Shown here piece after piece: positions 1,057-1,206 of a stretch of 64,000 nucleotides of DNA; position 1 is the first letter of the stretch; each line of letters opens with the position of its first letter. A model generated the notes under the pieces. It saw nothing but the letters and a program-made list of their open reading frames with translations. It ran no database searches and was not told where the DNA came from. The translations under genes were made by a program, and so were the position numbers. Source of the stretch: a virus (taxonomy: Duplodnaviria > Heunggongvirae > Uroviricota > Caudoviricetes); IMG/VR virus record IMGVR_UViG_3300022601_000011. One strand, written 5' to 3'.

Positions 1057-1206
1057 GCCGGTGTAGCTCAGTTGGTAGAGCAGTCGCCTTCACCACGTAA
1101 TTCAAGTAGAATCGTAAGGCAGGACCGATAAGGAATGTAGGTGCAAGTCCTACCGTGGTGACCAGTAAGCGACAGGTCGGGGGTTCAAGTCCGTCCGCCG
1201 GCTCCA
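1057..1206 (+). tRNA. tRNA gene interrupted in the anticodon loop by an ~80-nt insert (anticodon unresolved)
   Basis: Perfect acceptor GCCGGTG/CGCCGGC, D-arm GCTC-AGTTGGTA-GAGC, T-arm GGGGG-TTCAAGT-CCGTC and CCA. Anticodon stem GTCGC (1083-1087) pairs with GCGAC (1169-1173), but 81 nt lie between them instead of 7. The insert itself has a CACCACG...CGTGGTG-A-CCA pairing and a GTAGG-TGCAAGT-CCTAC T-arm-like hairpin. Confidence 0.6.

What the first reader, a model, noticed from the sequence alone, without database searches (positions are those of the whole stretch)
1057..1206. tRNA gene split in the anticodon loop by an ~80-nt insert that is itself tRNA-like
The gene has a perfect acceptor stem, D-arm, T-arm and CCA, and its anticodon-stem halves (GTCGC / GCGAC) are present but 81 nt apart. 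The insert contains a 7-bp CACCACG/CGTGGTG helix followed by A-CCA, and an internal GTAGG-TGCAAGT-CCTAC hairpin. It looks like the acceptor/T-arm of a second, degenerate tRNA nested inside the first. It is too short for a group I intron and has no obvious bulge-helix-bulge. Depending on the splice point the mature anticodon could be TCA, TCT or TGT.
Basis: seen in the sequence. Interest (0 to 1): 0.6.

Follow-up and report, generated by a model that had tools for sequence, protein, structure and literature searches.

The report
Phage tRNA-Thr split by tRNA-like intron
A phage threonine-tRNA gene is interrupted inside its anticodon by a 74-base insert shaped like a second, decoding-incompetent tRNA; the same design recurs in many phages and suggests an intron cut out by ordinary tRNA-trimming enzymes and resealed by a phage RNA ligase, a splicing route not yet shown in bacteria.

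Summary
Window 1057-1206 (+) is a complete tRNA-Thr(UGU) gene. Its anticodon loop is split after U34 by a 74-nt unit (1091-1164): a 7-bp acceptor-like helix, a D-like hairpin, a perfect T-arm, then A-CCA. Removing exactly this unit gives a 76-nt tRNA that ARAGORN calls Thr(tgt). It is the only Thr tRNA in this phage's 28-tRNA array. I found 21 distinct units of this kind in phage and metagenome DNA (20 ending CCA, one CAA), in tRNAs with anticodons UGU, UUG, UAA, UUU and UAU. They range from a 22-nt microhelix to 123 nt. All keep a terminal helix plus N-CCA and have U at -1; 20 of 21 have a T-arm abutting the helix. Units homologous to the window's sit in other host tRNAs, so the element has moved. 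Lak megaphages (Devoto 2019) already showed a tRNA-like "enigmatic" intron in tRNA-Thr(TGT), so the kind is known; the mechanism is not. Best explanation: RNase P cuts at the 5' end of the nested unit, an RNase Z-type enzyme cuts at its 3' end, and the phage's DraRnl-type ligase (14601-16034) reseals the exons. Splicing is inferred, not shown.

The parts
1057..1090 (+). 5' exon of tRNA-Thr(UGU): acceptor 5' strand 1057-1063, D arm 1066-1081, anticodon-stem 5' strand 1083-1087, C32-U33-U34 at 1088-1090
   Evidence: Sequence. In-silico splicing gives ARAGORN tRNA-Thr(tgt), 76 nt. Aligns with intact Thr(tgt) genes of relatives.
1091..1164 (+). Nested tRNA-like intron, 74 nt, running from the first base of its acceptor-like helix to its CCA
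   Evidence: Family of 21 units with the same boundaries. Neither ARAGORN nor Rfam calls it a tRNA on its own.
1091..1097 (+). Nested acceptor-like helix, 5' strand (CACCACG). Proposed RNase P cleavage site lies immediately 5' of it, after U1090.
   Evidence: All 7 pairs co-vary across 20 distinct members (score 1.21, against 0.29 for shuffles and 0.11-0.19 for slid registers). U at -1 in 19 of 19.
1100..1112 (+). D-like hairpin ATTC-AAGTA-GAAT of the nested unit
   Evidence: Folds. The block TAATTCAAGTAGAATC is identical in the nested unit of L033 tRNA-Gln and differs by one base in that of L195 tRNA-Gln.
1137..1153 (+). T-arm of the nested unit (GTAGG / TGCAAGT / CCTAC), directly abutting the acceptor 3' strand
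   Evidence: 5 of 5 pairs. The same arrangement occurs in 20 of 21 units and was not a search criterion. The TGCAAGT loop is shared with L128 and L195.
1154..1164 (+). Nested acceptor 3' strand CGTGGTG (1154-1160), discriminator A (1161), CCA (1162-1164). Proposed 3' cleavage lies after A1164.
   Evidence: CCA tail enriched in unbiased loci. The 3' boundary follows each genome's convention for encoded tRNA 3' ends: after CCA here, after the discriminator in Lak-A1.
1165..1206 (+). 3' exon: G35-U36-A37-A38 (1165-1168), anticodon-stem 3' strand 1169-1173, variable loop 1174-1178, T arm 1179-1195, acceptor 3' strand 1196-1202, discriminator T 1203, CCA 1204-1206
14601..16034 (+). ATP-dependent RNA ligase (DraRnl/Rnl5-type, N-terminal OB fold): candidate exon-sealing enzyme. 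The link to the intron is inferred.
   Evidence: PF09414 E 4.7e-7 plus PHA02142 OB. PHROG 968 'RNA ligase' E 7.6e-70. TIGR02306, partial match. 403 relatives in IMG/VR.
18272..18766 (+). P-loop kinase of the polynucleotide-kinase type (AAA_33/KTI12): possible end-healing enzyme. The link is inferred.
   Evidence: gene call in L213.
11783..12502 (+). Calcineurin-like metallophosphoesterase, one of three (also 17085-17930 and 18985-19578): possible 3'-end healing enzymes. The link is inferred.

Best explanation
Window 1057-1206 encodes a precursor of the phage's only tRNA-Thr(UGU). Its anticodon loop carries, between U34 and G35, a 74-nt intron that is a decoding-incompetent tRNA. The intron has an acceptor helix stacked on a T arm, a D-like hairpin, discriminator A and CCA, but no anticodon arm.

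The intron's two ends are the ends of a mature tRNA, so the cell's own tRNA end-maturation enzymes define the splice sites. RNase P cuts 5' of the nested acceptor helix. That leaves a 3'-OH on U34 and a 5'-phosphate on the intron. An RNase Z-type endonuclease, or an unknown equivalent, cuts right after the nested CCA and leaves a 5'-phosphate on G35. The two exons stay held together by the tRNA body. The nick in the 7-nt loop CUU|GUAA is then sealed by the phage's ATP-dependent RNA ligase (14601-16034). The neighbouring kinase and phosphoesterases are available if the ends need healing.

The element belongs to a mobile family that sits in the anticodon loops of several U34 tRNAs in related phages.

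Shown here: the anatomy, the family, the covariation, the exact boundaries and the gene context. Inferred: that splicing occurs, and which enzymes carry out each step. The 3' cut is the weakest step.
For: 1. Excision of exactly helix-to-CCA gives a canonical tRNA-Thr(tgt) in the window and in L006, L033 and L015. Intact orthologs have the same loop, and L207's intact Thr equals spliced L006 outside the anticodon stem.
2. It is the only Thr tRNA in a 28-tRNA array that covers 17 amino acids and already has an ordinary Arg(tct).
3. There are 21 distinct units in tRNAs with five different anticodons. In every case the outer cloverleaf is intact and the residual loop is 7 nt with U33.
4. What is conserved is the minimal recognition module of RNase P, RNase Z and the CCA-adding enzyme. 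The terminal helix co-varies at 7 of 7 pairs. The T arm abuts it in 20 of 21 units, although that was not a selection criterion. N-CCA follows. Sizes go down to a 22-nt hairpin plus UCCA, which rules out a ribozyme.
5. U occupies -1 in 19 of 19 units, whether the insert follows position 34, 35 or 36. This matches the known U(-1) preference of bacterial RNase P (my own knowledge).
6. The 3' boundary follows the genome's tRNA 3'-end convention. In the window phage, 25 of 26 tRNA genes encode CCA and the intron ends in CCA. In Lak-A1, 0 of 15 encode CCA and the 3' exon starts right after the nested discriminator, which is the RNase Z site.
7. RNase P and RNase Z products carry 3'-OH and 5'-phosphate, which are the direct substrates of an ATP-dependent ligase. 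The phage encodes one, together with a PNK-type kinase, three metallophosphoesterases, a nucleotidyltransferase and a YqeY protein.
Against: - There are no RNA data, so splicing itself is unproven.
- No enzyme is known to me that must cut after CCA in the (unknown) host. CCA is an anti-determinant for many RNase Z enzymes.
- Units in L192 and L208, and a further one in L180, end in CAA instead of CCA.
- DraRnl-type ligases are known to prefer nicks in duplex RNA, not loop nicks as T4 Rnl1 does (my own knowledge).
- The ligase also occurs in related phages with no such intron in the stretch I hold (L188-L190, L197). Whether the L006 and L033 phages carry it could not be settled.
- Lak-type introns have a leader of about 30 nt between the 5' exon and the nested tRNA. 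RNase P alone cannot make their 5' splice site.
- Several nested T loops are non-canonical, for example GGCAGYA and GTCATCA.
- The helix and CCA were search criteria for part of the set, so some of the statistics are partly circular.
Confidence: 0.45

Rival explanations
1. It is a true, spliced intron that yields tRNA-Thr(UGU), but other nucleases make the cuts. One candidate is RNase III acting on the long irregular helix formed by the anticodon stem plus the nested acceptor helix. Another is a host or phage metal-independent endonuclease leaving 2',3'-cyclic phosphate and 5'-OH ends. Those ends would be healed by the phage kinase and phosphoesterases and then sealed by the ligase, as in T4 repair of PrrC-cut tRNA-Lys.
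For: In the window's predicted fold the anticodon stem continues into the nested helix through the C32-G35, U33-A76 and U34-A73 pairs. The two proposed cuts are then staggered by two base pairs, as RNase III products are (my reading of that fold). The phage carries a complete heal-and-seal set: an AAA_33/KTI12 kinase, three metallophosphoesterases and the ligase, with a cREC protein just upstream. RNase P/Z products would not need that set. Lak-type introns need a 5' cut that RNase P cannot provide.
Against: The extra pairs are not conserved: discriminators are A, G, U or C, and position 35 varies. Helices are as short as 13 bp in L015. This model does not explain why a T arm and N-CCA are conserved, or why the 3' boundary follows the genome's CCA convention.
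Confidence: 0.2
2. The insert is a selfish mobile tRNA-like element that has landed in the anticodon loop. The gene is dead or dying, and no mature tRNA-Thr is made from it.
For: The distribution is sporadic: close relatives have uninterrupted Thr(tgt), and other tRNAs are hit instead. Homologous units sit in different host tRNAs. The terminal helix looks like terminal inverted repeats. There is no evidence of splicing.
Against: In all 21 cases the outer tRNA keeps every stem and a residual loop of exactly 7 nt with U33. Exons have diverged with compensatory changes: the anticodon stems differ between the window, L128, L006 and L033 yet all still pair. That indicates selection on the outer tRNA after insertion. 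It is the only Thr tRNA in the array. There are no target-site duplications.
Confidence: 0.15
3. The composite is processed but not religated. The useful product is the released nested tRNA-like RNA and/or the two tRNA halves. These could act as a decoy for host tRNA-targeting defences or as a partner of the phage's Y-RNA/RNA-repair proteins. The outer tRNA would serve only as a processing scaffold.
For: The array also holds a YrlA-like RNA and a second tRNA-like element, next to genes for RNA-binding and RNA-repair-type proteins. The internal blocks of the nested unit are conserved between phages.
Against: Nested units shrink to a 22-nt hairpin with no conserved internal sequence, so the insert itself has no common functional core beyond its processing signals. 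The anticodon-loop residues of the outer tRNA are kept canonical, which a scaffold would not need.
Confidence: 0.12
4. It is a self-splicing (group I-like or other ribozyme) intron, or an archaeal-type bulge-helix-bulge intron.
For: It lies in the anticodon loop, as bacterial group I tRNA introns do, and U precedes the 5' junction.
Against: The insert is 74 nt here and 22 nt in L015. There is no Rfam ribozyme or group I match at E up to 10 or in the whole array. The last intron base is A, not G. No bulge-helix-bulge appears in the fold. The position is 34/35, not 37/38.
Confidence: 0.02
5. It is an assembly or chimera artefact.
For: None beyond the unusual structure.
Against: The identical structure is present in ENA contig ERZ27248314 k141_3767000. 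The same architecture with unrelated insert sequences appears in many IMG/VR, JGI and ENA contigs and in published, manually curated Lak genomes.
Confidence: 0.01

Closest known systems
'Enigmatic' tRNA introns of Lak megaphages (Devoto et al. [quoted passage not shown]
   Same: A phage tRNA gene interrupted in the anticodon loop. The insert contains a tRNA-like unit whose 3' end abuts the 3' exon. Thr(TGT) is a host. Some variants lack the insert. No ribozyme match. The mechanism is unknown.
   Different: Lak introns sit after position 36. They carry a 5' hairpin plus an A-rich leader of about 30 nt ahead of the nested tRNA, and they lack CCA. The window type is leaderless, ends in CCA, sits after U34 (35 or 36 in some relatives), and includes minihelix and microhelix forms. 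The phages are unrelated in size and GC content (about 168 kb and 38% GC, against 540 kb and 26%).
Group I introns in bacterial and phage tRNA anticodon loops (e.g. cyanobacterial tRNA-Leu and tRNA-fMet; Patescibacteria, PMC13011429)
   Same: The only established class of bacterial tRNA introns. They lie in the anticodon loop, have U at -1, are sporadic and mobile.
   Different: Those are self-splicing ribozymes of at least about 200 nt with a P1-P9 core and a terminal G. Here the inserts are 22-123 nt with no core, end in A, and have no Rfam match.
Archaeal and eukaryal protein-spliced tRNA introns (bulge-helix-bulge, EndA/TSEN plus RtcB or Trl1)
   Same: A short, non-catalytic intron in the anticodon loop that must be removed by proteins and resealed by an RNA ligase.
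   Different: No bulge-helix-bulge motif. The junction is 34/35 rather than 37/38. The recognition element appears to be a tRNA top half inside the intron, not the exon-intron helix. The expected end chemistry is 3'-OH and 5'-phosphate rather than cyclic phosphate and 5'-OH.
RNase P model substrates and external guide sequences (acceptor/T-arm minihelices with 3' NCCA; McClain, Guerrier-Takada & Altman 1987; Forster & Altman 1990; my own knowledge)
   Same: The nested units are, structurally, such minihelices: a 7-bp helix stacked on a 5-bp T stem, single-stranded N-CCA, and U at -1.
   Different: Those are laboratory constructs or natural 5' leaders. Here the 'leader' is the 5' half of another tRNA, and the cut would double as a splice site. 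Cleavage was not tested.
tRNA-like processing signals embedded in longer RNAs (MALAT1 mascRNA; the mitochondrial 'tRNA punctuation' model)
   Same: A tRNA-like fold recruits RNase P and RNase Z to cut a host transcript at both of its ends.
   Different: Those cuts separate the products and nothing is religated. They occur in eukaryotic nuclei or organelles, and the tRNA-like fold is not inside another tRNA.
Phage T4 tRNA repair (PrrC cleavage of tRNA-Lys, healed by Pnkp and sealed by Rnl1; my own knowledge)
   Same: A phage-encoded kinase/phosphatase plus RNA ligase reseals a break next to the wobble base of a U34 tRNA. The window encodes an analogous enzyme set.
   Different: That is repair of damage, not removal of an encoded insert. 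The ligase here is DraRnl/Rnl5-like, not Rnl1.

Membership tests
tRNA-Thr(UGU) (outer gene) | Full cloverleaf with a 7-nt anticodon loop, U33 and anticodon UGU once the insert is removed | tested here: met
   ARAGORN calls the in-silico spliced sequence tRNA-Thr(tgt), 76 nt. The fold is a cloverleaf, -31.1 kcal/mol, z -2.4.
tRNA-Thr(UGU) (outer gene) | Similarity to uninterrupted tRNA-Thr(UGU) genes of related phages; G1-C72 and C2-G71 | tested here: met
   Alignment with 10 intact Thr(tgt) genes, all with a (C/T)TTGTAA loop. L207's intact gene equals spliced L006 outside the anticodon stem. G1-C72 and C2-G71 are seen in the sequence; their role as Thr identity elements is from my own knowledge.
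tRNA-Thr(UGU) (outer gene) | Aminoacylation with Thr and decoding of ACA/ACG | not testable with these tools
   Needs biochemistry.
Nested tRNA-like introns of phage tRNAs (Lak type, Devoto 2019) | The insert lies in the anticodon loop of an otherwise canonical phage tRNA | tested here: met
Nested tRNA-like introns of phage tRNAs (Lak type, Devoto 2019) | The insert contains a tRNA-like unit whose 3' end abuts the 3' exon | tested here: met
   The 3' exon starts right after the nested CCA. In Lak it starts 1-2 nt after the nested acceptor strand.
Nested tRNA-like introns of phage tRNAs (Lak type, Devoto 2019) | A 5' hairpin plus A-rich leader precedes the nested tRNA; no CCA; insertion after position 36 | tested here: not met
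   The window unit is leaderless, ends in A-CCA and follows U34. It is therefore a distinct variant, not the Lak subtype.
Group I intron | Conserved catalytic core (P3-P9), at least about 200 nt, terminal G | tested here: not met
   74 nt. No Rfam match at E up to 10. The last base is A. Family members are as short as 22 nt.
Bulge-helix-bulge (archaeal/eukaryal) tRNA intron | Two 3-nt bulges separated by a 4-bp helix at the junctions; usually position 37/38 | tested here: not met
   In the predicted fold the 5' junction lies inside a continuous helix with no 5' bulge. The position is 34/35.
Bacterial RNase P substrate | Acceptor-type helix of about 7 bp coaxial with a T stem, single-stranded 3' N-CCA, U preferred at -1 | tested here: met
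   7-bp helix with covariation at 7 of 7 pairs. T arm abutting in 20 of 21 units. N-CCA present. U at -1 in 19 of 19.
Bacterial RNase P substrate | Actual cleavage at the predicted phosphodiester bond | not testable with these tools
   Needs an in vitro assay or 5'-end mapping.
Functional (decoding) tRNA (nested unit) | Anticodon arm with a 5-bp stem and a 7-nt loop with U33; detected by tRNA finders | tested here: not met
   ARAGORN finds no tRNA in any insert tested alone. Rfam finds no tRNA hit confined to 1091-1164. The 23 nt between the D-like and T arms form no canonical arm.
YrlA / Y RNA-like | tRNA-like module with a capped acceptor stem, joined to a long closing stem | tested here: not met
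   The target gives no YrlA match. The YrlA-like match in the window is the separate element at 575-692.

The most novel reading that the evidence does not exclude
Phages, and therefore bacteria during infection, have a third route of tRNA splicing that is neither self-splicing nor based on a bulge-helix-bulge motif. A mobile 'top half of a tRNA' placed inside the anticodon loop recruits the universal tRNA end-processing enzymes to cut itself out: RNase P at its 5' end and an RNase Z-type enzyme at its 3' end. A phage RNA-repair ligase then joins the exons. Because the intron's ends are exactly the ends of a mature tRNA, the family may have arisen when an RNA-repair ligase inserted a small tRNA-like RNA into a nuclease-cut anticodon loop. 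The intron may also let the phage tie maturation of its U34 tRNAs to its own repair enzymes, or shield them from host anticodon nucleases.
Probability: 0.35. Interest if true: 0.85.

Novelty: new variant of a known kind. Interest (0 to 1): 0.66.

Why it matters
All established bacterial tRNA introns are self-splicing group I ribozymes. Protein-dependent tRNA splicing is regarded as a trait of archaea and eukaryotes. The Lak megaphage paper reported short tRNA-like inserts in phage tRNAs in 2019 and called them enigmatic. I found no later explanation in the searchable literature.

The comparative data gathered here turn that puzzle into a specific, testable mechanism. The splice sites coincide with the mature ends of a nested tRNA top half. 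The 3' site moves with the genome's CCA convention. The required end chemistry fits an RNA ligase encoded nearby.

If confirmed, this would be a new splicing pathway built from housekeeping tRNA-processing enzymes. It would also give phage RNA ligases and repair cassettes a new role and define a new class of mobile element.

There is a practical consequence too. These genes are missed by ARAGORN and Rfam in default modes and are mis-typed in intron mode: Arg instead of Thr here, and Pro, Glu, Ser or Trp instead of Gln, Leu or a UAU-anticodon tRNA in relatives. Phage tRNA repertoires are therefore mis-annotated.

Tried and rejected
- **Exact search for the insert's 3' part in IMG/VR:** no match.
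- **GenBank phages, blastn:** only generic tRNA matches, no relative.
- **First structural pattern:** 7 of 8 hits were simply adjacent tRNA pairs.
- **Loose parser of the metagenome hits:** many false outer tRNAs, so a strict filter was needed.
- **Relaxed test of residual-loop length:** timed out once and was then too noisy to interpret. It was replaced by the tail test on unbiased loci.
- **Stop-codon recoding by ORF-length gain:** uninformative. The question was settled instead by the CTA-anticodon tRNA in L215.
- **Fetching relatives through the gene at 4481-5146:** no relatives.
- **Through PhoH:** gene order differs, so the arrays were mostly out of reach.
- **Through ClpP:** only a 3.7-kb contig came back.
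- **Ligase co-occurrence in the L006 and L033 phages:** inconclusive. There are 403 relatives, only the best 80 are listed, and neither contig is among them.
- **Ligase against PDB by sequence:** no hit.
- **DUF2828 protein against PDB:** no Ro60 hit, so I do not claim it is Ro-like.
- **L026, L056, L081 and L145:** these have short inserts ending in CCA but without a clean terminal helix or register, so they were left out of the family.
- **L019 and L028:** 3' tRNA fragments only, probably prophage attachment sites.
- **L163 and L178:** archaeal short introns, unrelated.
- **Rejected readings of the target:** tmRNA or permuted tRNA, YrlA, anticodon TCA (opal suppressor) and anticodon TCT (Arg).
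- **RNase III cutting:** considered, and kept only as part of a rival explanation.
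Full report
**1. The observation**

Window 1057-1206 (+) reads as follows:
- GCCGGTG-TA-GCTC/AGTTGGTA/GAGC-A-GTCGC-CTT
- then a 74-nt insert
- then GTAA-GCGAC-AGGTC-GGGGG/TTCAAGT/CCGTC-CGCCGGC-T-CCA

The anticodon-stem strands (1083-1087 and 1169-1173) are 81 nt apart. Two details need correcting. The outer T stem carries a G.G mismatch (1181.1193). The insert proper is 74 nt (1091-1164), and the remaining 7 nt are the anticodon loop.

Default tools miss the gene. ARAGORN finds 7 tRNAs in the window but not this one. 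Rfam at gathering score finds 8 tRNA matches but not this one. A permissive Rfam scan gives only a 27.1-bit hybrid match, below the 29-bit gathering score. That match joins the outer 5' half to the insert's own T arm. The 150-nt RNA folds with the outer acceptor, D arm and anticodon stem intact, and the insert forms an extension of the anticodon stem.

**2. What the insert is**

The insert has this layout:
- CACCACG (7 nt)
- TA
- ATTC/AAGTA/GAAT, a D-like hairpin
- C plus 23 nt with no convincing arm
- GTAGG/TGCAAGT/CCTAC, a T arm that directly abuts the next strand
- CGTGGTG
- A
- CCA

This is a tRNA-sized molecule with acceptor stem, D-like arm, T arm, discriminator and CCA, but no anticodon arm. 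Neither ARAGORN nor Rfam calls it a tRNA on its own.

Removing exactly this unit leaves the loop C-U-U-G-U-A-A. ARAGORN then calls a 76-nt tRNA-Thr(tgt), and the product folds as a clean cloverleaf. ARAGORN's intron mode instead shifts the 74-nt intron by one base and calls Arg(tct). That alternative is unlikely for three reasons:
- Three relatives give TGT in either register.
- Ten uninterrupted tRNA-Thr(tgt) genes from related phages all have a (C/T)TTGTAA loop and align with the window's exons.
- The phage's full array already has an ordinary tRNA-Arg(tct) and no other Thr. That array is seen in locus L215, which is 99.97% identical to the window and extends 4.5 kb further upstream.

**3. 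A family, not a one-off**

A pattern for the junction (CCA-GTAA, then the anticodon-stem 3' strand, then AGGTC) was searched in IMG/VR, in JGI/ENA metagenomes and in one genome per prokaryotic species. After strict parsing this gave nine independent tRNA-Thr(UGU) genes interrupted after U34 by units that share no sequence but share one design:

| Locus | Insert length |
|---|---|
| window | 74 nt |
| L006 | 71 nt |
| L102 | 71 nt |
| L033 | 87 nt |
| L128 | 123 nt |
| L047 | 45 nt |
| L072 | 46 nt |
| L155 | 45 nt |
| L015 | 22 nt |

The 45-46 nt forms are bare acceptor-plus-T-arm minihelices. The 22-nt form is a 6-bp hairpin plus U-CCA. None of the 17 hits in prokaryotic genomes was of this type.

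I then fetched relatives of the window phage through its RNA ligase, so this set was not selected through any RNA pattern. They carry the same kind of unit in other tRNAs:
- Gln(UUG), after position 34 or after position 35
- Leu(UAA)
- Lys(UUU)
- UAU-anticodon tRNAs, after position 34 or after position 36

ARAGORN's intron mode mis-registers and mis-names most of these.

An isotype-independent detector required a full outer cloverleaf, a terminal helix of at least 6 of 7 pairs, N-CCA and a 7-nt residual loop with U33. It found 19 distinct units in 1.63 Mb and none in the reversed sequences. On the unbiased loci alone, with the 3-nt tail left free, 9 of 34 raw hits ended in CCA. About 0.5 would be expected, and 0 of 18 did so in the control. 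Two more plausible units ended in CAA.

**4. What is conserved**

- The terminal helix co-varies at all seven pairs. The score is 1.21, against 0.29 for shuffles (0 of 500 reach it) and 0.11-0.19 for slid registers. The caveat is that pairing was a selection criterion for part of the set. In the pattern-derived set it was not, and there 9 of 19 candidates had a helix of at least 6 bp exactly at the boundaries.
- A perfect 5-bp T stem with a 7-nt loop abuts the acceptor 3' strand in 20 of 21 units. The detector never asked for this feature.
- The base before the nested helix is U in 19 of 19 units, whichever loop position is used.
- All five host anticodons start with U. The background in these phages is 46% U34, giving p of about 0.02 for five anticodons.
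- Internal sequence is not conserved across the family. Within a sub-family it is: the window's unit shares the TAATTCAAGTAGAATC block (identical in L033, one base different in L195) and GGTKCAAGTCC with the units inside tRNA-Gln of L033 and L195, and it resembles the unit inside a UAU-anticodon tRNA of L192. The element has therefore moved between host tRNAs while its terminal helix was re-made by compensatory changes.

**5. Boundaries**

L207 carries an uninterrupted tRNA-Thr(tgt) that is identical to the in-silico spliced L006 gene everywhere outside the anticodon stem, including the odd GGGGG/CCGTC T stem. This fixes the insertion as "everything between U34 and G35".

A second comparison is more telling. 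In the window phage, 25 of 26 tRNA genes encode CCA, and the nested unit ends in CCA with the 3' exon starting right after it. In Lak-A1, none of the 15 tRNA genes near the interrupted tRNA-Thr encodes CCA. The nested tRNA there lacks CCA too, and the 3' exon starts immediately after its discriminator. The 3' splice site thus follows each genome's convention for the encoded tRNA 3' end. That is what one expects if the tRNA 3'-end endonuclease sets it.

**6. Prior art**

Devoto et al. [quoted passage not shown] One was a tRNA-Thr(TGT) whose intron "itself may encode a tRNA", and some variants lacked it. Their Table S6 shows that the Lak introns differ from the window type. They carry a 5' hairpin and an A-rich leader of about 30 nt, have no CCA, and are inserted after position 36.

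The 2021 Lak follow-up only notes that introns exist. Six full-text searches found no mechanistic account. The library covers open-access papers and bioRxiv only, so I cannot exclude a description elsewhere.

**7. Context**

The window comes from a phage of about 168 kb with 37.8% GC. Its anaerobic ribonucleotide reductase genes suggest an anaerobic host.

Downstream of the array lies a block of RNA-handling genes:
- PhoH
- a DUF2828/DUF7788 protein (PHROG "RNA-binding protein")
- a major-vault-protein-like protein
- a nucleotidyltransferase
- three calcineurin-type phosphoesterases
- a YqeY/GatB-type domain protein
- a DraRnl/Rnl5-type ATP-dependent RNA ligase at 14601-16034 (PF09414; PHROG 968, E 7.6e-70; TIGR02306, partial)
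- an AAA_33/KTI12 kinase of the polynucleotide-kinase type
- a Band-7/flotillin protein

A cyclic-phosphate-processing cREC protein lies just upstream of the window. No RNase Z, RtcB or EndA homolog was found in the 64 kb.

**8. Mechanism**

A 22-nt hairpin cannot be a ribozyme, and no group I or bulge-helix-bulge features exist. Removal must therefore depend on trans-acting enzymes.

The only common denominator is the acceptor/T-arm minihelix with single-stranded N-CCA and U at -1. From established knowledge that I did not test here, this is the minimal substrate of bacterial RNase P (McClain, Guerrier-Takada and Altman 1987; the external-guide-sequence work of Forster and Altman 1990; RCCA pairing with P15; the U(-1) preference). 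It is also the module read by RNase Z.

I therefore propose three steps:
- RNase P cuts between U1090 and C1091.
- An RNase Z-type enzyme cuts after A1164. Thermotoga RNase Z is known to cut after CCA, and many others are inhibited by CCA. This is the weakest step.
- The resulting 3'-OH and 5'-phosphate nick in the anticodon loop is sealed by the phage ligase.

My confidence by step:

| Claim | Confidence |
|---|---|
| The feature is real and belongs to this family | about 0.95 |
| It is a spliced intron giving tRNA-Thr(UGU) | about 0.65-0.7 |
| The specific RNase P / 3' endonuclease / phage ligase route | about 0.45 |

The main difficulties are these:
- There are no RNA data.
- Some units end in CAA rather than CCA.
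- The Lak-type leader cannot be removed by RNase P alone.
- DraRnl-type ligases prefer nicks in duplex RNA.
- The same ligase occurs in relatives without such introns in the stretch I hold. Whether the independent intron-bearing phages (L006, L033) have it could not be settled.

**9. Rivals**

- The same splicing, but with other nucleases. One option is an RNase III-like staggered cut in the extended helix. Another is a nuclease that leaves a cyclic phosphate, whose products are healed by the kinase and phosphoesterases. Confidence 0.2.
- A selfish insertion in a dead gene. Confidence 0.15. Intact outer tRNAs in all 21 cases, compensatory exon evolution, and the fact that this is the sole Thr tRNA all argue against it.
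- Processing without religation, to release small RNAs. Confidence 0.12.
- A ribozyme or bulge-helix-bulge intron. Confidence 0.02.
- An assembly artefact. Confidence 0.01.

**10. Verdict**

The finding is correct and its interpretation is essentially right. The anticodon is UGU (Thr).

The kind of object was reported once before, in Lak phages, without explanation. The window represents a distinct variant that is leaderless and ends in CCA. Together with its relatives it reveals the logic of the family and suggests a concrete, testable splicing mechanism.

Noticed in passing
window 562-692 (+): A Y RNA-like (YrlA-type) RNA sits inside the tRNA array: a closing stem, a T arm, an acceptor-like stem capped by a loop, and a D arm. 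Rfam RF02553 scores 32.7 bits (E 7e-6 in a local scan, below the gathering score of 69). The fold z-score is -5.0.
   Followed up: partly
window 1207-1340 (+): A tRNA-like element. Rfam tRNA scores 52 bits but covers only model positions 6-65. The anticodon loop is CTCTGAC. The acceptor stem cannot form; an AGACAU/AUGUCU helix closes the element instead. It shares the 5' motif (A)ACAGCAAAUAU with the YrlA-like RNA at 562-692.
   Followed up: partly
L194:6448-7014, L198:6450-7016, L188:14566-14681, L189:15331-15447, L190:16380-16495: A second class of interrupted tRNA-like genes in related phages. The inserts have no CCA. In L194 and L198 they carry a CTAACAGCAAGGT-type motif related to the ACAGCAAAUAU motif of the window's two odd elements; the L188-L190 inserts lack that motif and carry a short hairpin instead.
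   Followed up: no
window 780-1056: A 277-nt stretch between tRNA-Gln and the target with no ORF, no Rfam match and no homolog in the loci I hold. Its predicted structure is extensive, but I did not test it against shuffles.
   Followed up: partly
window 1786-2710 (+); L215:3696-3788: An AT-rich ORF of about 308 codons has two in-frame TAG codons and ends in TAA. The same phage encodes a tRNA with a CTA anticodon just upstream of the window. This suggests amber-codon recoding of at least some genes, while most large genes in the window read through under the standard code.
   Followed up: partly
window 3909-21361: An RNA-repair-type gene block: PhoH, a DUF2828/DUF7788 'RNA-binding protein', a major-vault-protein shoulder-domain protein (822 aa), a nucleotidyltransferase, three metallophosphoesterases, a YqeY protein, a DraRnl-type RNA ligase, an AAA_33/KTI12 kinase and a Band-7/flotillin protein. 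The DUF2828 protein gave no sequence hit to Ro60 in the PDB, so a Ro/Y-RNA link remains a guess.
   Followed up: partly
L215:1536-2073 (same phage, about 2.4-3.0 kb upstream of the window start): A tRNA (anticodon GGC according to ARAGORN) is interrupted in the anticodon loop by 463 nt. Almost all of that insert is an ORF for an I-Ssp6803I-type PD-(D/E)XK homing endonuclease (PDB 2OST, E 2.9e-7; PF11645, E 3e-20). There is no Rfam group I match, and only about 50 nt are non-coding, too little for a ribozyme.
   Followed up: partly
window 1179-1195; also L006, L033, L128 and L207:5481-5556: The outer tRNA-Thr lineage keeps an unusual T stem, GGGGG/CCGTC, with a G.G mismatch at positions 51.63. 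Both the interrupted genes and the intact L207 gene have it.
   Followed up: no
L020, L031, L046, L121, L131, L137 and other metagenome loci: Ordinary-length tRNAs whose 7-nt anticodon loop reads CCAGTAA, that is C at position 33 and anticodon AGT. They surfaced as by-catch of the junction pattern. Their origin and meaning are unknown.
   Followed up: no
L015 (IMGVR_UViG_3300033519_000062), immediately upstream of the interrupted tRNA-Thr: Read by eye from the sequence, an HNH-type endonuclease gene ends just upstream of the tRNA-Thr that carries the 22-nt microhelix insert. It was not run against any protein family library.
   Followed up: no
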